Part shown: piece after piece, positions 470 through 64,000 of the stretch
How positions within the stretch are numbered: the first letter of the stretch is position 1
Layout: the number at the start of each line of letters is the position of its first letter
Source: an uncultured Clostridia bacterium
GTDB lineage: Bacteria; Bacillota; Clostridia; TANB77; CAG-508
Reading direction: 5' to 3'
DNA: 64,000 bases
NCBI GenBank assembly: GCA_944388605.1
Contig: CALXJJ010000003.1
Span: forward strand, 3,091 to 67,090
Notes under the pieces: model-generated
Told to the model about the DNA's origin: nothing
Seen by the model: only the letters and a program-made list of their open reading frames with translations
Databases searched by the model: none
Made by a program: the position numbers and the translations under genes

Positions 470-2721
470 TATAGCTCCTTTTCTAATTTATATTGTAGCC
501 CCGTATTTCTTTTTTTCCCATCAATATTATTTATCATAAAATTTATTATATTAGGATTTCCTACTATAATAAGCATTTTTTTAGCTCTGGTCATTCCTGT
601 ATACAATAAATTCCTAGTAAGTAGCATTGGCGCTGATTGTGTTATTGGCATAATTACAACATCAAATTCACTTCCTTGTGCCTTATGAATAGTTATACTA
701 TAACTATGTTCTATTTGATCCATTTCATTGTATGCATACCATGCATATTTATCGTCATCAAATTTAATTTTAACCGTTTTTGTTTCTTCATTAAAACTTT
801 CTATTTTCCCCATCTCACCATTAAATACTCCTGAACCTGATTCAAATTTTTCTCCTTTTTTCTCCCAATATATATCATAATTATTTTTTATTTGCATAAC
901 TCTGTCACCAGTTCTAAAAATTGTTTTTCCTATTCTTTTTTCTTTTGAAAAATCTGTTTCAGGATTTAATTTTTCTTGAAGTATAACATTCAACTCTTTT
1001 GTTCCTAATTTTCCTTTTTTAGTTGGTGTAATGATTTGTATATTCTCAAAAAAATCATAATTTGCATATTTTTTTAGCCTTCCTGTACATAATGATATAA
1101 CATTGCTTAGTATTTTTTCTTGATTTGTCTCTGGTATGAAAAAAAAGTCGTCTTTAATTTCTTTATCTTCGTATTTTACTCCTATAAAACTTTCACCTTC
1201 GTTTACTTTATGTGAATTTAATATTATTTTACTTTTTGCAGCTTGCCTGAAAATTTTATTAAGTACTATAACCTCAATTCTATTTGAATTTATTATATCT
1301 TTCAATACACTACCAGGTCCTACTGATGGTAACTGATCTACATCTCCTACCAATACTAATTTTGTTCCTTTATATAATGCTTTAATTAAGTTATTCATCA
1401 AAAACATATCTACCATAGAAACTTCGTCAACTATAACTACATCTCCATCAATTGGTGATACATTTATTTCTTCTGCATATTCATCATCAATTGTTTTTTG
1501 TATTTCTAATAATCTATGTAAAGTTTTTGCTTCTTCTCCTGTTGCTTCTGTCATTCTTTTTGCCGCTCTACCTGTAGGCGCACATAATACAACTTTTTTT
1601 TCTTCTTTTTTATATAATTCTATAATTGTTTTTATTATAGTTGTTTTTCCTGTACCAGGTCCTCCTGTAATAACACATACATTATTATTATTTATTGCTA
1701 ATATTGCTTCCTTTTGCTTTTCTGACAAATCTATTATAGATTCTTTTTCTATATTTTTTAGTTTTTTGTCTATATTATGTATTTTCTTTACATTACTTGC
1801 ATTTACTAAATTCATTAATCTGTCTGCTATGTTTTGTTCTATTCTATAATAATTTGCTAAATAAATCCAATTTATTTCTTTTCTTTTTTCTTCTTTTATT
1901 TCTTCTTTTGCTTTCATAGTTATCATTGTCTCATGGACATCGTCATATGTTATTTCTAACAAATCTGAAACATATTGCATCAAATTTTCTTTATTTACAC
2001 ATGAATGTCCATTGGTTGTTGCTCTTAAAAAAGCATATTTTATTCCACTTCTGACTCTTTTATAATTATTTTTTTCTATTCCATTTTTTATAGCTAAACT
2101 ATCTATTTGTTTAAAATCAATATTATTTATTATATCTAATAATATGTACGGATTTGTTTCTATTTCTTCTATTGCATTATTACCTAATCTCTTATATACA
2201 GTTTGTGCACTTTGTGGTCCTAGTCCAAATTTTTCTAAGAATCCCACTATTTGCCACAATTCCCAGTTTTCTACAAAAGAATTTGCTATTTCTATAGCCC
2301 TTTCTTTAGTTATTCCTTTTACTTTACTTAATTTTTCAGGTTCGAATTTAAAAATATGTATTGTCTCTTCTCCAAAGGATTGGACTATATTTCTTGCAAT
2401 TGCAGGACCTATTCCTTTTATTAATCCATTTCCTAAATATCTTTCTAATGCTTCTAATGTACGTGGCATTATTTTCTCAAAAGTTGAAACTTTAAACTGT
2501 ACTCCATATTCTATATGTTCAACAAAATCTCCATATAATTTTAAAGTATCACCTATATTAACAAAAGGTAAATAACCTACTATTATTGTTTCTTCTTTAT
2601 CTGTTTCCAAGACAGCAACTGTATAACTATTCATTTCATTATGATAAACTATTTCTTTTACTTCTCCTATTATCTCCAAAATTTGCCTCTTTCCTTTTTG
2701 TTTATATATTGGGAAAGTCAT
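469..2721 (-). CDS. recD2: ATP-dependent RecD-like DNA helicase (RecD2)
   Basis: Track ORF 469..2775. Contains Walker A GGPGTGKTT, motif DEVSMVD and the late SF1 motif TIHKAQGSEF. I moved the start to the ATG at 2721 (MTFPIYKQ), which has AGGAAGAG upstream. The 18-codon extension to 2775 overlaps a repeat element. Confidence 0.9.
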   Translation of the reverse strand: MTFPIYKQKGKRQILEIIGEVKEIVYHNEMNSYTVAVLETDKEETIIVGYLPFVNIGDTLKLYGDFVEHIEYGVQFKVSTFEKIMPRTLEALERYLGNGLIKGIGPAIARNIVQSFGEETIHIFKFEPEKLSKVKGITKERAIEIANSFVENWELWQIVGFLEKFGLGPQSAQTVYKRLGNNAIEEIETNPYILLDIINNIDFKQIDSLAIKNGIEKNNYKRVRSGIKYAFLRATTNGHSCVNKENLMQYVSDLLEITYDDVHETMITMKAKEEIKEEKRKEINWIYLANYYRIEQNIADRLMNLVNASNVKKIHNIDKKLKNIEKESIIDLSEKQKEAILAINNNNVCVITGGPGTGKTTIIKTIIELYKKEEKKVVLCAPTGRAAKRMTEATGEEAKTLHRLLEIQKTIDDEYAEEINVSPIDGDVVIVDEVSMVDMFLMNNLIKALYKGTKLVLVGDVDQLPSVGPGSVLKDIINSNRIEVIVLNKIFRQAAKSKIILNSHKVNEGESFIGVKYEDKEIKDDFFFIPETNQEKILSNVISLCTGRLKKYANYDFFENIQIITPTKKGKLGTKELNVILQEKLNPETDFSKEKRIGKTIFRTGDRVMQIKNNYDIYWEKKGEKFESGSGVFNGEMGKIESFNEETKTVKIKFDDDKYAWYAYNEMDQIEHSYSITIHKAQGSEFDVVIMPITQSAPMLLTRNLLYTGMTRAKKMLIIVGNPNIINFMINNIDGKKRNTGLQYKLEKEL

Positions 2722-2751
2722 ACTTACTCTTCCTAATATATAACATATACT

Positions 2752-2823
2752 GCGAACAAATTCACGGAAAGTCAAAGAAAAAAGTTGAAAATACTATAAA
2801 TTTCAATGCTTACCGATTTGTTC
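2752..2823 (-). repeat. GGAAAG/CTTTCC hairpin repeat family, copy R1
   Basis: The minus strand reads GAACAAATCGGTAAGCATTGAAATTTATAGTATTTT...CTTTGACTTTCCGTGAATTTGTTC. The first ~37 nt align with copies at 31215, 32405 and 22106 (reverse). The termini are inverted repeats. Confidence 0.6.
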
Positions 2824-19026: not shown

Positions 19027-19350
19027 CTATAATTTTATTTCTATATCAACACCTGCTGGCAAATCAATTTTCATTAAACTGTCAACTGTTTTTTGTGTTG
19101 GGTATAAGATATCTATAACTCTTTTATGTGTTCTCATTTCAAATTGCTCTCTTGAGTCTTTATCTTTATGTGGAGAACGTAAAATTGTTACTATCTCTTT
19201 TTCTGTTGGTAATGGAATAGGACCTGAAACTTTTGCTCCTGTCTTTTTAGCAGTATCTACTATCATTTCAGCAGACTGTTCTAAAACTCCATGGTCATAA
19301 GCTTTTAATCTTATTCTAATCTTCTCACTTTCTACTTTGTTTGTTTGCAT
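19027..19350 (-). CDS. rpsJ: 30S ribosomal protein S10
   Basis: [40 protein letters not shown]...[11 protein letters not shown]. Confidence 0.97.
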
Positions 19351-19566
19351 TTTGCATTTCCCTCCTTCTATATTTATGGTCGGAAGCTATAAACGCACCC
19401 TGGTGTTTCTTTTTTTACCAATATAAAATCCAAAGTCTGCATGATAACTTTGGGATAAGTGCTTTTTTTATTAAACTTACCGCCTGGTCTAAGCCATAAC
19501 ATACTCCATAGGAGTTCCCTCCAACCTCAGTTGTAGCCACATCCTACTTCATCGCTTTTTTCATGC
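19351..19566 (-). promoter_or_regulatory. About 215-nt G+C-enriched structured 5' leader of the S10 operon
   Basis: It lies between the predicted TSS (about 19566) and the rpsJ ATG. It contains the hairpin ATCCCAAAGU...ACUUUGGAU (19428-19456) followed by UUUAUAU, alternative GGAG-GGAA-CUCC and CUCC-UAU-GGAG hairpins (about 19503-19528), and a second copy of the SD-like octamer GGAGGGAA (19515-19522, versus the real SD at 19358-19365). Confidence 0.55.
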
Positions 19567-19572
19567 TTTTAT

Positions 19573-19601
19573 ATTATACAATGCTTTTAGACTTATGTCA
19601 A
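19573..19601 (-). promoter_or_regulatory. Sigma-A type promoter of the S10 operon
   Basis: On the minus strand: TTGACA (19601-19596), a 17-nt spacer, then TATAAT (19578-19573). Both hexamers match the consensus exactly. Confidence 0.7.
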
Positions 19602-19819
19602 TACAAAAAATAAGAAATTTTCATATTTATATTTACTATCACTGGTTTAATCTATTATATTTTATTTATTATAAAAATAAAATTTATCTCATCTACAAGT
19701 TTTGACATTTTTTTCAAATAGTACATGCTATAATTAAAAAAATAGTTCCATTATACTAACAAATCAATTAACAAATATGAAATAAAATTTATTCTTCATA
19801 CAAAATAGGAGTGATACAT

Positions 19820-19966
19820 ATGAGGATAGAATTATTAATTTTAAAAAACAGAGCAAAACTTGAGCATATGATAAAAATAGGAGCTCCCTATGAAAAAATA
19901 TTAAAACAAAGTCAACTGTTAGATAAATACATAAATGAAAAAATGAAAAGGTTAACTTCAAAATAG
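19820..19966 (+). CDS. Spo0E-like sporulation regulatory protein (aspartyl-phosphate phosphatase family), 48 aa
   Basis: Absent from the ORF track (<60 aa). AGGAG sits 8 nt upstream of the ATG. Sequence: MRIELLILKNRAKLEHMIKIGAPYEKILKQSQLLDKYINEKMKRLTSK. The ...SQxLDxxI... helix pair is the Spo0E-family pattern, and a terminator hairpin overlaps the stop. Confidence 0.65.
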   Translation: MRIELLILKNRAKLEHMIKIGAPYEKILKQSQLLDKYINEKMKRLTSK

Positions 19967-19977
19967 TTAGCCTTTTC
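19950..19977 (+). terminator. Intrinsic terminator of the Spo0E-like gene
   Basis: GGTTAACT (19950-57) pairs with AGTTAGCC (19965-72) and is followed by TTTTCT. Confidence 0.5.
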
Positions 19978-20057
19978 TAATATATAACATCTATTGAGCA
20001 TAAATTTACTAAACTGATAAATATAAAAGTATAAATTTTAATGCTTTCCCATTTGCT

Positions 20058-21650
20058 CTATTTAATTCTTTCAAATATTGGTTCTATATTTTCAATATCT
20101 TTACATTTTTTTACTTGTATATATTCCCAGCAACATTCTTCTATTTCTAAGAATCTCCTAACTTTTTTAGATGACTCAGGCATAAAAGGTTCATATAAAT
20201 TAGATAAATTAGCAATAAGGTTACAACATGTATATATAGTATTATTAAATTCTTGTATATTCTCTTTTTGCTGTTTCCATGGCTGTTTTTCCTCATAAAA
20301 TTTATTTCCTTCTTCAACTAAATCTCTAATTAATAAAACTGCCTTTTTAAATTCCAAATTTTCAATTGCATTTCCCACATCTTTATATGCTTTTTCTATT
20401 AATTCCTTCATATATTTATTCATAACACCATCAGGTATTTGTTTTAATCCTTTATATTTTAAAGTTCTATTTATGAGATTTCCATATTTATTAACAACTT
20501 CCGCATTACTTATAGCAACAAATTCTTCAATAGAAAAATTACTATCCTTCCTTTCTGGTCCATTTCCTATTAGATAATATCTAATCATATCAGAATTATA
20601 ATTATCTAGCATCTGTCTTATTGTTATACCATTTCCTTTGGATTTAGATATTTTCTCTGAATTTATATTTAAGTATTGTGTTGCGACCATATAATCTGGC
20701 AATTTATAATCTTCTTCCAACGCTAATAATAAAGCTGGTAATATTATAGTATGAAAGGTTATATTGTCTTTTCCATGTGCCATAAAAATCAAATTATTTC
20801 TGTCATTTTTCCAATAATTTTCCCAGTTTAAACCTTTTTCAATACAAATTTTTTGACATGCTGTAATATATCCTAAAACAGCCTCTATCCATACATACAT
20901 TTTTTTGTCTTCAAATCCTTTAATAGGTATATCGATTCCCCATTCAAGATTTCTGGTTACTGCTTTTTCTGGCAAACCTTCTCTTAAATACTTTTCAGTT
21001 TCATTTTGAGAACTAATTCTCCAATTTTTTTTATTTTTTTCAACATATTTTTCAATCTTATTTTGTAATTTTCCCAATGCTAAATATAAATTCATATTTT
21101 CTTTTTGAACTGTTTCACTTCCACATGTCTGACATTTAGCCCCAATTAAGTCTTCTAACTTAGGCTCATATCCACAATCACACATATCTCCTTTAGTTTC
21201 TTTTCCACAAGAAGGACAAGTTAAAATCAGCTCTCTGTCTGCCACAAACTTATTGCAATGTTCGCAAAAAGGTTGTAAATCTTTTTTAGCATAAATATAT
21301 CCATTATCATACATCTTTTTAAACAACTCTTGTACTTTCTTTTTATGAAATTCATCTTCTGTTTTAGTATATAAATCATATGAAAACTGCATGTCATTAA
21401 AGCAATCTGTAAATTCTTTGTGATATGATTCTGATATTTCTTTAGGAGTTTTGTTTTCTTTTTTTGCTCTAATTGTAATAGGAGTACCATGGCAATCCGT
21501 TCCAGAAACATAAAGTACATTATCTCCAATTTGTCTATAATATCTTGCAAGAACATCTCCAGAAATTAATCCTGCTACATGTCCAACATGTAAAGAATTA
21601 TTAGCATAAGGCCATGCTCCTCCTATTAATATATTTCTTTTATTATGCAT
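20058..21650 (-). CDS. metG: Methionine--tRNA ligase (short form, no C-terminal tRNA-binding domain)
   Basis: HIGH-type motif ANNSLHVGHVAG, zinc knuckles CEHCNKF...CPSCG...CDCG...CQTCG, and KMSKS-type KISKSKGNG. Confidence 0.93.
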   Translation of the reverse strand: MHNKRNILIGGAWPYANNSLHVGHVAGLISGDVLARYYRQIGDNVLYVSGTDCHGTPITIRAKKENKTPKEISESYHKEFTDCFNDMQFSYDLYTKTEDEFHKKKVQELFKKMYDNGYIYAKKDLQPFCEHCNKFVADRELILTCPSCGKETKGDMCDCGYEPKLEDLIGAKCQTCGSETVQKENMNLYLALGKLQNKIEKYVEKNKKNWRISSQNETEKYLREGLPEKAVTRNLEWGIDIPIKGFEDKKMYVWIEAVLGYITACQKICIEKGLNWENYWKNDRNNLIFMAHGKDNITFHTIILPALLLALEEDYKLPDYMVATQYLNINSEKISKSKGNGITIRQMLDNYNSDMIRYYLIGNGPERKDSNFSIEEFVAISNAEVVNKYGNLINRTLKYKGLKQIPDGVMNKYMKELIEKAYKDVGNAIENLEFKKAVLLIRDLVEEGNKFYEEKQPWKQQKENIQEFNNTIYTCCNLIANLSNLYEPFMPESSKKVRRFLEIEECCWEYIQVKKCKDIENIEPIFERIK

Positions 21651-21943
21651 TTTTATTCCCCCTTAATTATATATTATTACTTAAATGCAGTGCATTTTTA
21701 ATACACTACTATTTTTATATTTATTCTGTAATTTCTATATCTTACTATATAAAATTTCTCATCCATAAAATAATTCATTCTATTTAATATTATATTCAAT
21801 TATCTTAATTTTTTCAATAAATTTTTAAATTTGGCAAATATATATCACACTTTACTGATAAATATATGCTTTAAAATACCAAACTATAGTTTATAATTTA
21901 ACATAAATTTTTAAATTTGGCAATGCTAGTTGGCAAATTTTTA

Positions 21944-22106
21944 TTATACAATAGGAAAGTTATCCTTTCCTATTGTATAAAAGTCGCTACGCTCTAACGA
22001 CTGCACACAATTTTACTTGCGTAAAATTGGCTTAGGAACAAATTTACTAAAAAGCCAACGAGAAAATATTAAATTAGTACAAATTTTAAGGCTTTCCGAT
22101 TTGTTC
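21944..22106 (-). repeat. GGAAAG/CTTTCC hairpin repeat family, long copy R2
   Basis: The minus strand starts GAACAAATCGGAAAGCCTTAAAATTTGTACTAATTT and ends CTTTCCTATTGTATAA. The left end is a perfect 16-bp palindrome, TTATACAATAGGAAAG/CTTTCCTATTGTATAA (21944-21980). The interior carries three further hairpins. Confidence 0.65.
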
Positions 22107-22205
22107 TTTTATTGGATTGTTTTCTAATCCATAGTATAATTTATTTAATTTACATATCTCCTCCTTCATTCACCCCAAAAATCTGATGTGCAGATAGAGT
22201 AAAGT

Positions 22206-22255
22206 ATAAAGAGTATACCGAAAAGTTTACATAAACTTTTCGGTATACTCTTTAT
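22206..22255 (-). terminator. Perfect 24-bp palindrome downstream of the gene relic
   Basis: ATAAAGAGTATACCGAAAAGTTTA (22206-22229) and TAAACTTTTCGGTATACTCTTTAT (22232-22255) are exact reverse complements. Confidence 0.4.
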
Positions 22256-22293
22256 GATTTGACATTATAATTAATATTTACTCTTTTCTTCTA

Positions 22294-22712
22294 TCAGCTT
22301 ACAGTGTCACTTATTATTAAAGTGGCTCTCGCTGTAAGGAGTAAACTCCCACCGTATGGAAAGCTACCATTACGGTCTGAACCTGGATAACTTGAACCTG
22401 AACTGCTGAAGTGACCTCCGTTACCAAAACGATACAAACATCTCTTCTCTTGTTATTTCTCCTATCTCTTGTGGCTCTCCACTTCCTATTATTCCATCCA
22501 TTTCTGCTATTATTTCATTTATTGCTGTCTCATCCGCTGCCATCGCATTCTCCATATACTCCTTCGTCTCCTCTGCTTTCTTAAACAATCCATTCTCTCC
22601 TAATGCTACATTTATTGTTACTCCTGCTAATATTATTAATACTATTATTGTCACTGCTAATGCTATTAGTGTTATACCGCTTATTTTGTTTTAGTTTAAC
22701 TTTCACTAACAT
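22294..22712 (-). pseudogene. Decayed gene for a protein with a pilin-like hydrophobic N-terminus; at least two frameshifts
   Basis: The ATG at 22712 (after GAGAGGAGA) gives MLVKVKLKQNK. The sequence continues only in another frame as GITLIALAVTIIVLIILAGVTINVALGENGLFKKAEE... (track ORF 22421..22654), then in a third frame as FGNGGHFSSSGSSYPGSDRNGSFPYGG... to the stop at 22294. The region is visibly G+C-richer than its surroundings. Confidence 0.5.
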
Positions 22713-22770
22713 TCTCCTCTCTCATGTATTTAATTTATTATATCTATGCTTTAGGCTTTTCATCTATCTA

Positions 22771-22894
22771 GCAAGGCAAAGAATTGACCTTTTGGCTAGG
22801 CAAGCAAGCGAGAAAACCGGAGGTGTACTTTTGAACACCAAAGGATTTTCAATGCAAAGCTGCCACCAAGCCAAAAGTCAATTATTTGCCTTGC
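22771..22894. other. 124-nt element closed by a roughly 26-bp stem
   Basis: GCAAGGCAAAGAATTGACCTTTTGGCT (22771-22797) pairs with AGCCAAAAGTCAATTATTTGCCTTGC (22869-22894). The G+C-rich interior contains a GGTGT...ACACC hairpin. Confidence 0.45.
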
Positions 22895-22999
22895 GGTAAC
22901 TATGACGTATCAAAAGCATAGGCTATTTTACTATAAAATAACCTATGCTTTTGATTTATTCTATTTAATTTTCTTATTATTTTTCCTCTAAAGTTTACG

Positions 23000-23024
23000 A
23001 TATATATATATATATATATATATA
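23000..23024. repeat. (AT)12 dinucleotide microsatellite
   Basis: An uninterrupted atatat... run read directly from the sequence. Confidence 0.95.
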
Positions 23025-23486
23025 CAGCCCCAAGGCTTTCAGCCATTTTTCTCATTTCTTTTGTTCTCCTTTTGCTTGTTTTTTATTATCTTTTTTCCTA
23101 CAACTTTTATTTATTATATACTTATTTCTCCTATTTTTGCAATACTTTTTTCTTTTATTTTCCTTTTGTATATTAATTCCTAATTTACAAATTTGGCACT
23201 TCCCATAAAATGTTAAAAGAATTATTAATTGGAATAATGCGTTTTTTTGCAAACTTTTCGCGTCAACAAATTTTATAATCTTCTTGCTAAATTTTAATTT
23301 AACATATTTTATTGAATAGTTTATTGTTGTTCGCTATAAAGAACATTTTATTGTAAGATACTTTACTTTCTTGTCACACAAAAATCTCTATTCCTATTGA
23401 TACTGTTTACTCCAAATAGTAACCCTTAATTTCCACACTTTTTCAATTGACATAATTAAGGTTTTTTAATTTTTTTTCAAAACATG

Positions 23487-23515
23487 TTGCAAATTTTCAA
23501 TAATAATTGTATAAT
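23487..23515 (+). promoter_or_regulatory. Sigma-A type promoter of tRNA-Trp
   Basis: TTGCAA (23487-92), a 17-nt spacer, then TATAAT (23510-15), about 25 nt before the tRNA 5' end. Confidence 0.6.
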
Positions 23516-23540
23516 AAATAAGAATTGTTTTTTTAGATAT

Positions 23541-23615
23541 AGGGGTATGATGTTAATGGTAGCATACTGGTCTCCAAAACCAAGTGTGAGGGTTCGAATC
23601 CTTCTACCCCTGCCA
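23541..23615 (+). tRNA. trnW: tRNA-Trp (anticodon CCA), with encoded CCA end
   Basis: Acceptor AGGGGTA/TACCCCT, anticodon loop CTCCAAA, T arm GAGGG-TTCGAAT-CCTTC, discriminator G plus CCA. There is one C-A mismatch at the top of the anticodon stem. Confidence 0.9.
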
Positions 23616-23619
23616 AAAC

Positions 23620-23790
23620 GGACAAATCTCGCTTTGCGAGAACTTTTCTCTACTTTTCTAACTTAACTATATATATTTAAGTTCTCGAAGAAGAGTAAAG
23701 ATTTGTCGACGCGAAAAATTGCATAGCAATTTTTCTGTGCAATGTTGTTTTTTATTGAATAAGAAAACTCGATTTTTCCTATTCAATAAA
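23620..23790 (-). repeat. About 170-bp multi-hairpin repeat, copy A (inverted relative to copy B at 45003)
   Basis: The reverse complement aligns end to end with 45003-45163, with roughly 90% identity by manual alignment plus a 10-nt and a few 1-2-nt indels. It begins 5 nt after the tRNA-Trp CCA. Confidence 0.85.
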
Positions 23791-23794
23791 AACT

Positions 23795-23832
23795 AAAAAA
23801 GCCTTAAAATATTGATTATTTAAGGCTTTTTT
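23795..23832. terminator. Bidirectional terminator hairpin shared by tRNA-Trp and whiA
   Basis: AAAAAAGCCTTAAA...TTTAAGGCTTTTTT, with A- and T-runs on both sides. It overlaps the whiA stop. Confidence 0.6.
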
Positions 23833-24677
23833 AGTTTTTTTGTTATTTCTTCTGCTATTTTTTCTATAGATTTTAATCTATGATTTATTCCAGATTTTCC
23901 TATTTTTTCTGTTAACATATGTCCTAATTCAGCAAGTGTTGCTTCAGGATTTTCTAACCTTAATTTAGCTACTTCTTGTAATTGCTCTGGAATTTTATTA
24001 AACTCATTATATTTCTGTATTATTTTAATTGCTTGTATTTGTTTTGCTGAGGCTTGTGCAGTTTTATTTAAGTTTGCAGTTTCACAATTTACTATTCTAT
24101 TAACATTATTCCTCATATCTCTTAATGCTCTTGCTTCTTCAAATTTAAGTACTGAAGTGTTAGCTCCTATGAATGCTAAAAATTTTGATATTTCATCTCC
24201 ATCTTTTATATATACAGAATTACCATTACTTTTTCTTATTCTTTTTACTTCTATACCATATTTATTTAGTATTTTACTTATTTTGTCCACTAATACATCT
24301 TCTTTTATATTTATTTCTAAATGATAATTATTTTTTGGTTCATTTATAGAACCATTCCCCATAAAAACTCCTCTTATATATGCTTTTTCTAATACTTCTT
24401 TACTTAAATTTATACTTTCTATTTTCAAATTATTTTTAAAGGTAACTATATAATTATTTCCTTTCACTTGTATATTATACTTTTCTATACCTATATTTTT
24501 AAGCAATTTTATAAATCTGTTTATATTATATTCATTTTCTGTTGCATATTCTATATTTTTATTTGTTTCTATTCTTTTATTAATCATGTACCCTTTAAAT
24601 TCTGCTAATACTGACTCTTTGTCCTTCAAATTTTTAATTTTGCTAAGTTCCTCTTTTACATCAAAACTAAAAGACAT
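23820..24677 (-). CDS. whiA: DNA-binding sporulation/cell-division regulator WhiA
   Basis: N-terminus MSFSFDVKEELSKI, a degenerate LAGLIDADG-like middle (YIRGVFMGNGSI) and a C-terminal HTH (LAELGHMLTEKIGKSGINHRLKSIEKIA). Confidence 0.9.
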   Translation of the reverse strand: MSFSFDVKEELSKIKNLKDKESVLAEFKGYMINKRIETNKNIEYATENEYNINRFIKLLKNIGIEKYNIQVKGNNYIVTFKNNLKIESINLSKEVLEKAYIRGVFMGNGSINEPKNNYHLEINIKEDVLVDKISKILNKYGIEVKRIRKSNGNSVYIKDGDEISKFLAFIGANTSVLKFEEARALRDMRNNVNRIVNCETANLNKTAQASAKQIQAIKIIQKYNEFNKIPEQLQEVAKLRLENPEATLAELGHMLTEKIGKSGINHRLKSIEKIAEEITKKLKKP

Positions 24678-31214: not shown

Positions 31215-31268
31215 GAACAAATCGGAAAGCCTTAAAATTTATATTAATTTTATCTTTCCTATTGTATA
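31215..31268 (+). repeat. GGAAAG/CTTTCC hairpin repeat family, short copy R3
   Basis: GAACAAATCGGAAAGCCTTAAAATTTATATTAATTTTATCTTTCCTATTGTAT. ACAAATCGGAAAG pairs with CTTTCCTATTGT. Confidence 0.65.
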
Positions 31269-32404: not shown

Positions 32405-32470
32405 GAGCAAATTGGAAAGTCTTAAAACTTGTACTAATTTTATTTTTACTCTTTGACTTTCCTATTGTAT
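32405..32470 (+). repeat. GGAAAG/CTTTCC hairpin repeat family, copy R4
   Basis: GAGCAAATTGGAAAGTCTTAAAACTTGTACTAATTTTATTTTTACTCTTTGACTTTCCTATTGTAT. Confidence 0.65.
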
Positions 32471-34136: not shown

Positions 34137-34159
34137 TAATTTAGTAAAATTTGGCATGT

Positions 34160-34230
34160 GAACAATAAACGCGGGCTTTAAAATGTTATCAACAGAGAAA
34201 AAAATCTAAAAAGCCCGCTATTGTTTTTAA
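34160..34230 (+). terminator. Hairpin variant of the repeat family with a G+C-rich stem and a T-run
   Basis: GAACAATAAACGCGGGCTTT...AAAGCCCGCTATTGTTTTT. It lies between the HD gene and dapB. Confidence 0.45.
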
Positions 34231-34259: not shown

Positions 34260-35042
34260 TTGATAAATATTTTAGTTAATGGTTGTAATGGCAAAATGGG
34301 ACAAGAAGTCGTTAAACAAATTGATAAAGTTGATGATATGAATTTGATTGGTGGTTTTGATAAAGAAAATACAGGAATTTTCACTTTCCCTGTATATACT
34401 TCTTGGGAAGAAGTATATAATGTTATATATAGCAAATGTAATAAATTTTCAGAAAAACCTGATGCTATTATAGATTTTTCAGTTCCAGTTGCTACTTTTG
34501 CTATGCTAGATTTTGCAAAAGAGCATAAAATCCCTGTAGTTATTGCTACAACTGGCTTCACAAATGACGAATTAAATAAAATAAAAAAATATAGTGAATA
34601 TATTCCTATATTTCGTTCTTCAAATATGTCTTTTGATATTAATTTGATGTGTAAAATTGTTTCTTGGATTGCTCCACTTCTAAGTGATACTGATATAGAA
34701 ATTACAGAAACTCATCATAACAGGAAAATAGATAGTCCAAGTGGAACAGCACTCATGTTAGCTGATAAGATTAATCAAGCTTTAAATAATAAATTACACT
34801 ATGAATTTAATAGGCATGATAAACGCTCGAAAAGAGATAAAAATGAAATTGGATTTTCTTCAATTAGAGGTGGCAATATTGTTGGTGAACATATTGTACA
34901 ATTCTTTGGTGAATATGAATCTTTTGAAATAAAACATACTTCTTATTCAAGAAATGTATTTGCAGAAGGTGCTTTAAAAGCTACTAAGTTCCTAATTAAT
35001 AAGCCATCTGGTTTATATAATATGGATGATATATTAAAATAA
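34260..35042 (+). CDS. dapB: 4-hydroxy-tetrahydrodipicolinate reductase
   Basis: (M)INILVNGCNGKMGQEV...ETHHNRKIDSPSGTA. TTG start at 34260, 7 nt after AGGAGG; the track start at 34221 lies inside the upstream hairpin. Confidence 0.9.
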   Translation: MINILVNGCNGKMGQEVVKQIDKVDDMNLIGGFDKENTGIFTFPVYTSWEEVYNVIYSKCNKFSEKPDAIIDFSVPVATFAMLDFAKEHKIPVVIATTGFTNDELNKIKKYSEYIPIFRSSNMSFDINLMCKIVSWIAPLLSDTDIEITETHHNRKIDSPSGTALMLADKINQALNNKLHYEFNRHDKRSKRDKNEIGFSSIRGGNIVGEHIVQFFGEYESFEIKHTSYSRNVFAEGALKATKFLINKPSGLYNMDDILK

Positions 35043-35185
35043 TTACAAATTTAAAATCCTAAAAATTTGTAATTATTTTAACTTTTTCCTTTACTTTTTA
35101 GTTAACTTGCATGCAATGCTAAAATATATCTACTTTTATATAATAGAGAAGATTACTTTTCTATTATATAATTATTTTGTATTTT

Positions 35186-36835: not shown

Positions 36836-36901
36836 TTATAATAAATTGCCATAATGTATATATACACGTATTTCAAAACCTTGTTGTCTAAGAAAAAATA
36901 T

Positions 36902-36952
36902 AAGCTTTATTGCACACAAATTTAATCACTAAATCTGTGTGCAATAAAGCTT
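36902..36952. terminator. Bidirectional terminator between convergent genes
   Basis: A 17-bp perfect stem: AAGCTTTATTGCACACA / TGTGTGCAATAAAGCTT. Confidence 0.6.
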
Positions 36953-36982
36953 ACATATTTAAAATTTAATATACAATACATT

Positions 36983-44988: not shown

Positions 44989-45002
44989 TTTATTCTTTTT
45001 TA

Positions 45003-45163
45003 TTGAATAGGAAAAATCGAATTTTTCTTATTCAACAAAAAACAACATTGCGCAGAAAAATTGCTATGCAATTTTTCTGTGTCGACAAATCTTTACTCTT
45101 CTTCGAGAACTTAAATATATATAGTGTTAAGTTAGAAAAGTCCTCGCGAAGCGAGATTTGTCC
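45003..45163 (+). repeat. About 165-bp multi-hairpin repeat, copy B
   Basis: TTGAATAGGAAAAATCGAATTTTTCTTATTCAA hairpin, CAGAAAAATTGC-TAT-GCAATTTTTCTG hairpin, and GACAAATCT...AGATTTGTC outer stem. It is the inverted partner of 23620-23790. Confidence 0.85.
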
Positions 45164-45214
45164 ATTTCAAATACATGTCATTATATAAATTCTTTTATGA
45201 AAGGAAAATTTTTT

Positions 45215-50819: not shown

Positions 50820-50850
50820 TGTTAAGAACAAAAGCGACATGATTAATTTA

Positions 50851-50969
50851 TATATTAGGAAAAGTTAACATAACTTTCCTAATATATAATAAATTACACT
50901 TCTTAGAAAACTTAAATATATACAGTTTAATTATATACTAGAAAAAGTTCTCTAAGAAGTGTAAAGTTT
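50851..50969 (+). repeat. Related multi-hairpin cassette that also serves as the mutS2 terminator
   Basis: TATATTAGGAAAAGTT-AACAT-AACTTTCCTAATATA hairpin, then ACACTTCTTAGA...TCTAAGAAGTGT followed by a T7 run. The core CTTCTTAGAAAACTTAAATATATACAG matches CTTCTTCGAGAACTTAAATATATATAG in copies A and B. Confidence 0.6.
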
Positions 50970-50987
50970 TTTTGTATTATATATTTT

Positions 50988-63342: not shown

Positions 63343-64000
63343 TTATAATTTCTTGCCTCTCCTTGCCTCTACAACTTTATACATTATTATTCCTGCTGAT
63401 ACTGATGCATTTAGTGATGTTATCTTCCCATTCATAGGTATTTTTACTAAGAAGTCACAATTATTTTTTACTCTATTTGATATTCCTCTTCCTTCATTTC
63501 CTATAACTATTGCTATTGGCATATTATAATCTTGTTTGTCATAACATGTATTAGTATTTATATCTGTTCCAATTATCCAAAGTCCTTCTTTTTTTATCAT
63601 TTCTATTGTATCAGAAATATTTGTTACTCGTGCTATTTTCATATATTCTACTGCACCTGCTGAAGTTTTATTTACTGTACTATTTACACTTGCTGATCTC
63701 CTTTTTGGTATTATAATTCCATGAACTCCCGCTGTTTCTGCAGTTCTTATAATTGATCCTAAATTATGCGGATCTTCTATACCATCTAATATTAGTATAA
63801 ATGGTATCTCATTTCTTTCTTTTGCAACTTTTAATATATCCTCAACATCACAATATTCATAAGGTGGAACTATAGCAATTACTCCTTGATAATTAGTATT
63901 TTCTGCTATTTTATCCATTTGCCTTCTATCTTTTTCTATTATTATAACTTTCTTATCTTTTGCTTTTTGTATTATTTTATTTATTGAACCATGTTTTTCT
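63343..64000 (-). CDS. rlmB: SpoU/TrmH-family rRNA 2'-O-methyltransferase (RlmB-like); 5' end lies outside the window
   Basis: HQGVIAIV...ILDGIEDPHNLGSIIRTAETAGVHGIIIP...IPMNGKITSLNASVSAG. The frame stays open upstream of the track start (…EKHGSINKIIQKAKDKKVIIIEKDRRQ-MDK) to position 64000. Confidence 0.75.
   Translation of the reverse strand, partial: EKHGSINKIIQKAKDKKVIIIEKDRRQMDKIAENTNYQGVIAIVPPYEYCDVEDILKVAKERNEIPFILILDGIEDPHNLGSIIRTAETAGVHGIIIPKRRSASVNSTVNKTSAGAVEYMKIARVTNISDTIEMIKKEGLWIIGTDINTNTCYDKQDYNMPIAIVIGNEGRGISNRVKNNCDFLVKIPMNGKITSLNASVSAGIIMYKVVEARRGKKL

What the first reader, a model, noticed from the sequence alone, without database searches (positions are those of the whole stretch)
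21944..22106. Dispersed hairpin repeat family with conserved termini GAACAAATCGGAAAG ... CTTTCCTATTGTAT
I could align four copies by eye: 2752-2823 (-), 21944-22106 (-), 31215-31268 (+) and 32405-32470 (+). A looser variant lies at 34160-34225. The first ~37 nt (GAACAAATCGGAAAGCCTTAAAATTTGTACTAATTT) and the last ~16 nt are conserved, and the two termini are imperfect inverted repeats (ACAAATCGGAAAG / CTTTCC-TATTGT). The interior ranges from about 25 nt to about 130 nt; the long copy carries three extra hairpins plus a perfect 16-bp palindrome. Every copy lies in a spacer between co-oriented genes and points the same way as those genes: Lon-like to asd, asd to dapA, the relic to metG, and the 118-aa ORF to recD2. 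That bias suggests a function at the RNA level (terminator, processing site or leader), or insertion and selection tied to transcription, rather than random MITE insertion. None is followed by a clear U-tract. A TAGGAAA(A)G-loop-CTTTCCTA hairpin module also occurs in the ~170-bp repeat family (23751-23790, 45003-45036, 50851-50886).
Basis: seen in the sequence. Interest (0 to 1): 0.55.

Follow-up and report, generated by a model that had tools for sequence, protein, structure and literature searches.

The report
Modular hairpin repeat of gut Clostridia
The finding is a real, previously uncatalogued family of about 150-base, hairpin-rich selfish repeats scattered through the genomes of a group of uncultured gut Clostridia; most copies in this window are decayed relics, and none shows evidence of being a gene regulator or a terminator.

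Summary
The repeat is real. A 26-nt 5' motif matches 4 times in the window against 0 expected. The long copy (21946-22106, minus strand) is the canonical element. It has three to four hairpin modules: M1, M2, an optional M2b, and M3. The short copies are internal deletions between CTTTCC microhomologies.

The family occurs in 17 species-level MAGs of low-GC uncultured Clostridia, often as tandem arrays. It has no match in Rfam, phage, plasmid or viral collections. It is absent from orthologous spacers (asd-dapA, ffh-rpsP) in related species. It varies by whole modules between strains. Copies from different species are more alike than the neighbouring housekeeping genes.

Outside the window, copies between co-oriented genes are 19 antisense to 3 sense. 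The 34160 variant is also antisense. The consistent feature is that the M3 end abuts the A-tract of a host terminator hairpin (61% against 6%).

Best reading: a non-autonomous BIME/BOX/PATE-like mobile repeat, possibly moved as single-stranded DNA. No mobilising enzyme was found. An RNA-level role is unsupported but not excluded.

The parts
21946..22106 (-). Full-length canonical element. M1 long hairpin 22036-22106; M2 hairpin 22002-22035; M2b hairpin 21983-22001; TTTT linker 21979-21982; M3 perfect hairpin 21946-21978.
   Evidence: R1 134 bits, model 1-156. Folds at -51.4 kcal/mol, z = -6.2. Aligns end to end with 28 copies from other MAGs. Contigs of other strains break inside it at 22055, and positions 21979-23153 are absent from strains L049 and L050.
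2705..2823 (-). Copy with M1 (2754-2823) and M3 (2705-2745); M2 deleted. Lies upstream of recD2. The called recD2 start codon (ATG at 2721) lies in the M3 loop.
   Evidence: nhmmer 1e-15; R1 90 bits; sequence; gene call.
19994..20058 (-). It begins at the metG stop codon. The M1 base shows a compensatory change (GAGCAAAT..ATTTATGCTC).
   Evidence: Motif with 3 mismatches; sequence; R1 14 bits, E = 0.18 with filters off. A weak hit.
31215..31268 (+). Internal-deletion derivative. The M1 5' part is joined at a CTTTCC microhomology to the M3 3' arm. Lies between lonC-like and asd.
   Evidence: Exact 26-nt motif; comparison with full-length copies; same gene spacing in all 10 strain contigs read; absent upstream of asd in relatives.
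32405..32470 (+). Independent internal-deletion derivative. M1 through GACTTTCC is joined to the M3 3' arm TATTGTAT. Lies between asd and dapA.
   Evidence: R1 44 bits; sequence; the asd-dapA spacer of relatives L059 and L060 lacks it. A weak TTGACT-17-AATTAT promoter-like match overlaps it, no better than chance.
34151..34230 (-). Sister family 3: an M1 hairpin plus the start of M2. It is antisense to the flanking plus-strand genes (HD-domain gene, dapB).
   Evidence: Matches the L037 family-3 element in minus orientation, with the pyrimidine tract on the minus strand; R1 15 bits on the minus strand only.
35046..35166 (+). Degenerate copy (M1-like plus M3) in the convergent spacer after dapB.
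   Evidence: R1 31 bits; sequence.
23620..23791 (+). Family 2 full-length element (M1 GGACAAATC..GATTTGTC, M2, M3). It starts 5 nt after tRNA-Trp and is followed by a terminator hairpin.
   Evidence: Sequence; R1 36.7 bits; tRNA.
44998..45167 (-). Family 2 full-length element in a convergent spacer.
   Evidence: Sequence; R1 33.5 bits; same gene spacing in all 10 strain contigs read.
50847..50975 (-). Family 2-like copy with M3 and part of M1; M2 missing. Convergent spacer.
   Evidence: Sequence; R1 25.7 bits for M3.

Best explanation
The finding is one full-length copy and several decayed copies of a non-autonomous, modular, hairpin-rich interspersed repeat. It behaves as selfish DNA of the BIME/BOX/PATE kind and is specific to a clade of uncultured low-GC gut Clostridia.

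The unit is about 147-160 nt. It consists of M1 (a 70-nt hairpin closed by GAACAAAT/ATTTGTTC), M2 (a 14-bp hairpin with a conserved G.U pair and a bulged U at its base), an optional M2b, a GTGTTTTAT linker, and M3 (TCTATTAGGAAAGTCA-loop-TGACTTTCCTAATAGA).

Shown: it is multi-copy in many species; it forms head-to-tail arrays, including arrays that mix families; it is absent from orthologous sites in relatives; it differs by whole modules between strains; its hairpins are maintained by compensatory changes; and its M3 end sits directly against the A-tract of host terminator hairpins in a preferred orientation.

Inferred: copies spread by insertion rather than descent. They are mobilised in trans, most plausibly as single-stranded hairpin DNA by a HUH-type enzyme of the IS200/IS605 or RAYT kind, and they land next to the T-tract of terminators. 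They then decay by deletions driven by microhomology and by the hairpins themselves. The window copies upstream of asd, dapA, metG and recD2 are such relics, fixed in the species. When co-transcribed they add stem-loops to the mRNA but are not dedicated regulators.
For: Reality and breadth:
- The motif gives 4 matches against 0 expected.
- 44 true loci in 17 MAG species, with further copies in four metagenome contigs.
- About 10 copies in the 64-kb window.
- Tandem arrays in L034 (three copies), L002 and L040; a family-3 plus family-1 hetero-tandem in L037.

Structure:
- 97.6% of cells paired; 12 of 45 pairs carry compensatory changes; 0 of 500 shuffles reach this; slid controls give 35-48% paired.
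- Sister families keep the architecture with different stem sequences.

Not a conserved cis-element:
- Absent from the asd-dapA and ffh-rpsP spacers of relatives.
- No Rfam hit.
- No promoter or terminator consensus inside the element.

Dynamics:
- A 1175-nt indel with a breakpoint at the foot of M3.
- Three alleles downstream of clpX that differ by whole modules, among strains with 97-99% identical ClpX.
- A 203-nt deletion at the M3 foot with TTAT microhomology.
- Contigs break inside the repeat.
- Identical copies at two loci of one MAG, L001 and L012.
- Non-orthologous copies from different species are 82-92% identical, against 73-82% for orthologous coding DNA.

Placement:
- 20 of 33 copies have a hairpin of -10 kcal/mol or better within 60 nt 3' of M3. 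The figure is 2 of 33 on the 5' side and 6% in background (Wilcoxon p = 6e-4).
- The downstream neighbour is convergent in 34 of 43 cases. There are 12 convergent spacers against 1 divergent.
- Among co-oriented gene pairs outside the window, 19 copies are antisense and 3 sense (binomial p about 9e-4, computed by hand).

ssDNA idea:
- No target-site duplication and only weak terminal inverted repeats.
- The base before GAAC is A in 48 of 55 copies, and the flank after M3 is T(A/G)AAA.
- The M2 hairpin is asymmetric, with 34 G.T cells against 3 A.C cells.
- IS200-type TnpA is common in Clostridia (PMC6006769).
- Strand and orientation bias is a hallmark of IS200/IS605 elements (PMC5027513).
Against: - No transposase or other recurrent neighbouring gene was found in about 0.55 Mb of sampled sequence.
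- No clean empty-versus-filled site pair was recovered, so the exact ends and target are not established. The clpX site shows layered rearrangements rather than a simple insertion.
- The TAAAA flank may belong to the element, because it extends the M3 stem.
- The five family-1 copies between co-oriented genes in the window are all sense to their genes, opposite to the family trend (hypergeometric p about 7e-4, computed by hand). This is unexplained.
- High cross-species conservation and the conserved G.U pair could equally reflect a functional RNA.
- Most window copies have the same gene spacing in every strain contig read, so current mobility in this species is low.
Confidence: 0.68

Rival explanations
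1. A multi-copy structured non-coding RNA. This could be an sRNA, or a guide or scaffold RNA for a mobile-element nuclease or recombinase, transcribed in the reader's orientation and ended by the host terminator just downstream.
For: - The element followed by a terminator hairpin is the usual layout of an sRNA gene.
- The fold is strong, z = -6.2.
- Compensatory changes are present.
- A G.U pair and bulged U are conserved at the base of M2 across families.
- Sequence is more conserved than the neighbouring coding DNA.
Against: - The 5' flank has no conserved promoter or any conserved sequence beyond one base.
- The opposite strand folds equally well, z = -6.3.
- M3 shows more A.C than G.T cells on this strand.
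- The terminators differ at every locus, so they are host sequences and not part of the unit.
- Modules occur alone and in many deleted forms.
- Tandem arrays have no spacing between units.
- No Rfam match.
- No associated protein gene.
Confidence: 0.12
2. One reading: a cis-acting RNA element (terminator, attenuator, leader or processing site) serving the flanking genes, which would explain co-orientation with them.
For: - The five window copies between co-oriented genes are all sense to their genes.
- Some copies are certainly co-transcribed, for example the family-2 copy between tRNA-Trp and its terminator.
- The called recD2 start codon lies in the M3 loop.
Against: - No U-tract or terminator-like site.
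- Absent at orthologous positions in relatives.
- The flanking genes share no function across loci.
- The family-wide orientation is mostly antisense.
- Three antisense copies sit inside what I read, from one small ORF's sequence, as a spoIIIA-like operon.
- The 34160 variant is antisense.
Confidence: 0.06
3. A host-domesticated DNA or mRNA structural element of the REP type, for example a binding site for a nucleoid protein or gyrase, or a 3'-end stabiliser, kept by selection next to terminators rather than spread selfishly.
For: - Location at the 3' ends of genes next to terminators.
- High conservation between species.
- Most window copies have the same gene spacing in every strain contig read.
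Against: - Presence or absence differs between related species at housekeeping loci.
- Heavy decay and module loss without apparent cost.
- Most copies lie antisense and beyond the terminator, so they are outside the mRNA they would stabilise.
Confidence: 0.1

Closest known systems
BOX elements (and SPRITE and RUP) of Streptococcus pneumoniae
   Same: These are modular, highly structured intergenic repeats of 100-200 nt with no coding capacity. They are over-represented between convergent genes and near 3' ends. About half the insertions are fixed in the species, length varies by gain and loss of modules, and no linked transposase is known. They are judged parasitic but can affect co-transcribed genes (PMC3049150).
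   Different: No sequence relationship was established and the host clade is different. BOX varies by the number of boxB units. Here there are three distinct hairpin modules in fixed order, which vary mainly by deletion. Direct abutment to a separate host terminator and a strong antisense bias are not reported for BOX. SPRITE itself resembles a terminator, whereas this element does not.
REP / BIME / REPIN sequences mobilised by RAYT (TnpA-REP), and IS200/IS605-derived palindrome-associated elements (PATEs)
   Same: They share imperfect hairpins with asymmetric features (a bulge, G.T pairs), no terminal inverted repeats of the classical kind, no target duplication, an extragenic position after genes, clustering into mosaics and tandems, and orientation bias. 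The proposed single-strand HUH chemistry is the same (PMC3333891, PMC3116915, PMC6006769, PMC5027513).
   Different: REPs are 20-40 nt with a conserved 5' tetranucleotide and occur as inverted pairs. This unit is about 150 nt with three unlike hairpins. No RAYT or TnpA gene flanked by the modules was found, and no defined target tetranucleotide was shown.
bcr1-type repeats of the Bacillus cereus group (from my own knowledge, not checked here)
   Same: About 150-nt AT-rich intergenic repeats in a Firmicute. They are predicted to fold with compensatory changes, are mobile without an identified enzyme, and are often transcribed with neighbouring genes.
   Different: bcr1 is reported with a TTTAT target duplication. 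No duplication is seen here. Sequences were not compared.
Class C (IIC) group II introns, compared for choice of insertion site only (from my own knowledge)
   Same: They insert just after the stem-loop and T-tract of intrinsic terminators, in a fixed orientation relative to the terminator.
   Different: This element is far too small, shows none of the conserved intron end motifs by eye, encodes no reverse transcriptase, and gives no Rfam intron match.

Membership tests
Classical MITE (terminal inverted repeats plus target-site duplication) | Terminal inverted repeats matching those of a parent IS | tested here: inconclusive
   In subfamily B the ends GAACAAATCGGAAAG and CTTTCCTATTGTAT share about 12 of 13 bases with one indel. 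In subfamily A the match is only about 8 of 14, mostly the GGAAAG core. No parent IS is known.
Classical MITE (terminal inverted repeats plus target-site duplication) | Direct duplication of the target at both ends | tested here: not met
   The flank profiles show only A at position -1 (48 of 55) and T(A/G)AAA after M3. There is no matching duplication, and TA precedes the element in only about one third of copies.
REP/REPIN with RAYT | A short (20-40 nt) imperfect palindrome with a conserved 5' tetranucleotide, commonly in inverted pairs | tested here: not met
   The unit is 147-160 nt with three different hairpins in fixed order. Arrays are head-to-tail, not inverted.
REP/REPIN with RAYT | A RAYT (TnpA-REP) gene flanked by the repeats in the same genome | not testable with these tools
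   Only about 8-kb stretches around copies could be read. No Y1-like ORF was found in about 0.55 Mb using from-memory queries, and no recurrent neighbour was found. Whole MAGs could not be scanned.
IS200/IS605-derived non-autonomous element (PATE) | Subterminal hairpins, no inverted repeats, no duplication | tested here: met
   Hairpins lie at both ends (M1, M3) and no duplication is present.
IS200/IS605-derived non-autonomous element (PATE) | Insertion 3' of a fixed tetra- or pentanucleotide on one side only | tested here: inconclusive
   On the complementary strand the element is preceded by TTTTA or TTTCA in most copies. That string also pairs with the internal TTTTA linker and may be part of the element. 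No clean empty site was recovered.
IS200/IS605-derived non-autonomous element (PATE) | Active strand lies on the lagging-strand template | not testable with these tools
   Only orientation relative to genes could be measured (19 to 3 outside the window). Replication direction is unknown for these contigs.
Any Rfam RNA family (riboswitch, leader, sRNA, ribozyme, IS-associated RNA) | A score at or above the family's gathering threshold | tested here: not met
   The window has only 6S RNA and tRNA at gathering threshold. The E <= 10 scan of 19300-23600, which includes the full-length copy, gave nothing relevant.
Intrinsic terminator | A GC-rich stem-loop followed directly by a U-tract | tested here: not met
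   No terminator-like site lies inside any element scanned. M3 is followed by A's. The sites found are separate host hairpins.
Pneumococcal BOX | boxA-boxB(n)-boxC module order and sequence | not tested
   No BOX sequence was available for comparison. The resemblance is architectural only (PMC3049150).

The most novel reading that the evidence does not exclude
The element may be a new type of non-autonomous mobile DNA that homes, in a fixed orientation, to the end of the T-tract of intrinsic terminators. It would be recognised through its asymmetric M2 and M3 hairpins by an as yet unidentified single-strand DNA (HUH-type) or RNA-guided enzyme. Alternatively, the conserved three-hairpin unit may be the scaffold of a guide-type RNA that uses the neighbouring terminator. 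Either reading would add a terminator-targeting insertion mechanism outside group IIC introns.
Probability: 0.15. Interest if true: 0.7.

Novelty: new member of a known kind. Interest (0 to 1): 0.4.

Why it matters
The family is dense, about one copy per 6 kb in this window. It breaks metagenome assemblies and generates strain-level indels, so cataloguing it would improve assembly, annotation and strain typing of a poorly known gut Clostridia clade. Gene callers are already misled by it: the called recD2 start codon lies in an M3 hairpin. Its tight and oriented association with terminators, and its unusually high conservation between species, make it a tractable case for asking how REP-, BOX- and PATE-like repeats choose their sites and persist. 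It does not explain regulation of asd, dapA, metG or recD2.

Tried and rejected
- Rfam scans at gathering threshold and at E <= 10 gave nothing for the element.
- blastn of the consensus against plasmid and phage collections found no match.
- The motif scan of viral contigs gave 7 chance matches, none confirmed by the covariance model.
- The metagenome scan added copies in only four contigs, too few to replicate the statistics.
- All-against-all clustering of ORFs from 44 loci, looking for a recurrent partner gene, returned only syntenic housekeeping genes.
- tblastn with from-memory Y1 and RAYT sequences found nothing; this is a weak negative.
- Promoter and terminator consensus scans found nothing in the element above chance.
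- The search for clean empty and filled sites showed that most window copies have the same gene spacing in every strain contig read. The clpX site is polymorphic but rearranged in layers, so the ends and any duplication remain undefined.
- A TA duplication of the IS630 or RUP type was rejected.
- A lysine riboswitch or T-box upstream of asd, dapA or metG was rejected.
- An ssoA-like origin, suggested by the TAGCGA string in M2b, was rejected because that string lies in the stem and not the loop.
- One look-up failed because the protein at 63343-63918 is not on record.

Full report
**1. What is in the window**

The 26-nt 5' motif occurs 4 times with at most 3 mismatches, against 0 in 100 shuffles. 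It starts at the metG stop codon at 20058 on the minus strand. The window is 25-30% G+C and carries housekeeping genes: ribosomal operons, metG, whiA, proS, lonC-like, asd, dapA, dapB, spoIVA and gerA. Rfam finds only 6S RNA and tRNA-Trp at gathering threshold, and nothing relevant at E <= 10 around the long copy.

**2. The long copy is the canonical element**

A degenerate form of the 5' motif was scanned against one genome per species and returned 48 stretches. Of these, 44 are true copies, from 17 MAGs labelled uncultured Clostridia, Clostridium sp. or Bacillota. The other four are chance matches in unrelated phyla.

In these MAGs the motif is nearly always followed by the same 147-160 nt that the window has at 21946-22106. 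The modules are:
- M1: GAACAAATCGGAAAGCC ... GGCTTTCCG(taa)ATTTGTTC, about 70 nt, with an apical small hairpin and a pyrimidine tract.
- M2: TGCGCC-stem-loop-stem-T-GTGCA.
- M2b: present in one subfamily only (GTTGGAGCGTAGCGAC).
- A GTGTTTTAT linker.
- M3: TCTATTAGGAAAGTCA-GTA-TGACTTTCCTAATAGA, or ATACAATAGGAAAG-loop-CTTTCCTATTGTAT in the window's subfamily.

The short window copies are deletion products. At 31215 the sequence jumps from ATCTTTCC in the M1 apex to TATTGTAT of the M3 3' arm. At 32405 it jumps from GACTTTCC in the M1 3' arm to the same point. Both jumps occur across the CTTTCC repeat. The copy at 2705-2823 has lost M2 only.

This explains the "conserved termini, variable interior" and the apparent pairing of the two ends.

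**3. One superfamily, about ten copies in 64 kb**

A covariance model (R1), built from 29 family-1 copies, recovers it at 33-37 bits. It also finds a degenerate copy at 35039-35173.

The 34160 variant matches the M1 of a third family, seen in full in L037. It matches only in minus orientation: its pyrimidine tract and the start of M2 are on the minus strand, and R1 scores only that strand. A fourth family appears in L029 and L035.

**4. Structure**

The full copy folds at -51.4 kcal/mol (z = -6.2). Its complement folds at -45.2 kcal/mol (z = -6.3).

On the 29-sequence alignment, 97.6% of cells form pairs and 12 of 45 pairs show changes on both sides. None of 500 shuffles reaches these values, and slid registers give only 35-48% paired.

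Within family 1 the covariation lies in M2 and M3, and M1 is almost invariant. Between families, M1 is rebuilt with entirely different stems.

The base of M2 keeps a G.U pair and a bulged U in families 1-4, while the inner stem changes (CAAATTTAT, CAATTTTAC, GAAAAATTGC). Counts of G.T against A.C cells are 9/4 in M1, 34/3 in M2 and 6/11 in M3. Strand asymmetry therefore rests on one conserved wobble pair and does not decide between RNA and single-stranded DNA.

**5. Not a conserved regulator or terminator**

In relatives with 77% identical Asd, the asd-dapA spacer is 127-133 nt and lacks the element, and the region upstream of asd is unrelated. The ffh-rpsP spacer carries a copy in one MAG and none in another. 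No promoter-like or terminator-like consensus lies inside the element above chance.

**6. Placement and orientation**

ORF neighbours were called for every 5'-complete copy.
- The downstream neighbour is convergent in 34 cases and co-directional in 9.
- There are 12 convergent spacers against 1 divergent.
- Between co-oriented genes there are 19 antisense and 7 sense copies, and 4 of the 7 sense copies are the window's own. Outside the window the count is 19 to 3 (binomial p about 9e-4 by hand; 17 to 3 if the three L014 copies count once).
- The four extra metagenome loci do not change this.
- In L014, three antisense copies sit in consecutive spacers of what I read, from one small ORF's sequence, as a spoIIIA-like operon.

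A second full-length copy of the window's own species lies just outside the window, 87 nt from the start of a divergently oriented gene. The window's five-out-of-five sense pattern differs from the family trend (hypergeometric p about 7e-4 by hand) and remains unexplained.

The consistent feature is at the 3' end. Of 33 copies with M3, 20 have a hairpin of -10 kcal/mol or better within 60 nt downstream. This compares with 2 of 33 upstream and 6% of random windows (Wilcoxon p = 6e-4). These hairpins differ from locus to locus and begin within about 1-10 nt of the element behind an A-run, so they are host terminators.

**7. Evidence for mobility and decay**

- Head-to-tail arrays have no spacer (L034 with three copies, L002, L040), and a family-3 unit is followed directly by a family-1 unit in L037.
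- Two loci of one MAG carry identical copies.
- Non-orthologous copies from different species are 82-92% identical, where orthologous coding DNA is 73-82%.
- A copy in the same spacer in two species is about 95% identical, while the adjoining spacer is about 70-75% and carries an indel at the boundary.
- Strains of the window's species differ by a 1175-nt segment (21979-23153). Its breakpoint lies exactly at the foot of M3, and contigs of other strains end inside M1.
- L018 and L044 differ by a 203-nt deletion at the M3 foot with TTAT microhomology.
- Downstream of clpX, strains with 97-99% identical ClpX carry three alleles of 194, 281 and 354 nt, made of different module sets. The intact copy lies next to the terminator and a decayed copy lies further away.
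- The other window copies have the same gene spacing in all ten strain contigs read.

**8. Mechanism**

There is no target duplication and only a weak inverted repeat. The base before GAAC is A in 48 of 55 copies, and M3 is followed by T(A/G)AAA. On the complementary strand this reads as a T-rich pentanucleotide, then a hairpin, and so on to a terminal GTTC. That is the layout of IS200/IS605-type and REP-type single-strand elements. On that strand the element would be co-oriented with most genes, as such elements are when their active strand lies on the lagging-strand template (PMC5027513, PMC6006769).

This inference is weak. No enzyme was found. The flank may belong to the element. Replication direction is unknown.

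**9. Comparison with known repeats and verdict**

The nearest functional analogues are pneumococcal BOX, RUP and SPRITE. These are also enriched in convergent spacers, about half fixed in the species, and structured (PMC3049150). The REP/BIME/REPIN elements are the other close analogue. The element is absent from phage, plasmid and viral collections.

Verdict: this is a real and previously uncatalogued member of the class of structured interspersed bacterial repeats. The window copies are mostly relics. The oriented association with terminators is the one feature worth following up.

Noticed in passing
window 21979-23153: A strain-variable 1175-nt segment. It is present here and in strains whose contigs break at 22055, and absent in L049 and L050. 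It holds M1-M2-M2b of the element, a strong bidirectional terminator hairpin (22209-22252), and a GC-richer relic whose minus strand reads a broken prepilin-like N-terminus.
   Followed up: partly
window 36882-36962: A long perfect palindrome, AAGCTTTATTGCACACA..TGTGTGCAATAAAGCTT, whose arms contain the M2 3'-arm string AAATTTGTGTGCAAT (R1 17.8 bits). It may be a solo M2 derivative now acting as a terminator.
   Followed up: no
window 2705-2745 and 2721: The gene caller starts RecD2 at the ATG in the loop of the M3 hairpin, with an SD-like AGGAAGAG in the 5' arm. A TTG about 50 nt downstream, with a better ribosome-binding site, is an alternative start. M3 in general carries an SD-5nt-ATG string.
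   Followed up: partly
window 23541-23840: tRNA-Trp is followed 5 nt later by a full family-2 element and then a terminator hairpin. This copy should therefore be part of the tRNA 3' trailer and be removed during processing.
   Followed up: no
window 19477-19560 (-): A match to the S10-Clostridia ribosomal leader (RF03136) at 26.4 bits, below the gathering score of 35.1, lying upstream of the S10 operon.
   Followed up: no
window 23000-23025: An (AT)13 microsatellite inside the strain-variable region.
   Followed up: no
L036 2430-2510; also the 5' flanks of the L020 and L037 elements: A different repeat in the related MAGs (GGGACGTTTCTGTTTGGGACATTTTTGTCCAATTGG, tandem in L036), found next to copies of the element.
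   Followed up: no
L117 20128-20296 (+), about 7 kb beyond the left end of the window: A second full-length copy in the window's own species (R1 110.6 bits), 87 nt from the start of a divergently oriented ytxC-like gene. It is not co-oriented with that gene.
   Followed up: partly
L059 7725-7800, L060 2830-2915, L061 7970-8060: In relatives, the spacer before dapB holds a different long hairpin (GACGGGG..AAATTT..CCCCGTTTTT) at the position where the window has the family-3 M1. The site appears prone to hairpin elements or terminators.
   Followed up: no
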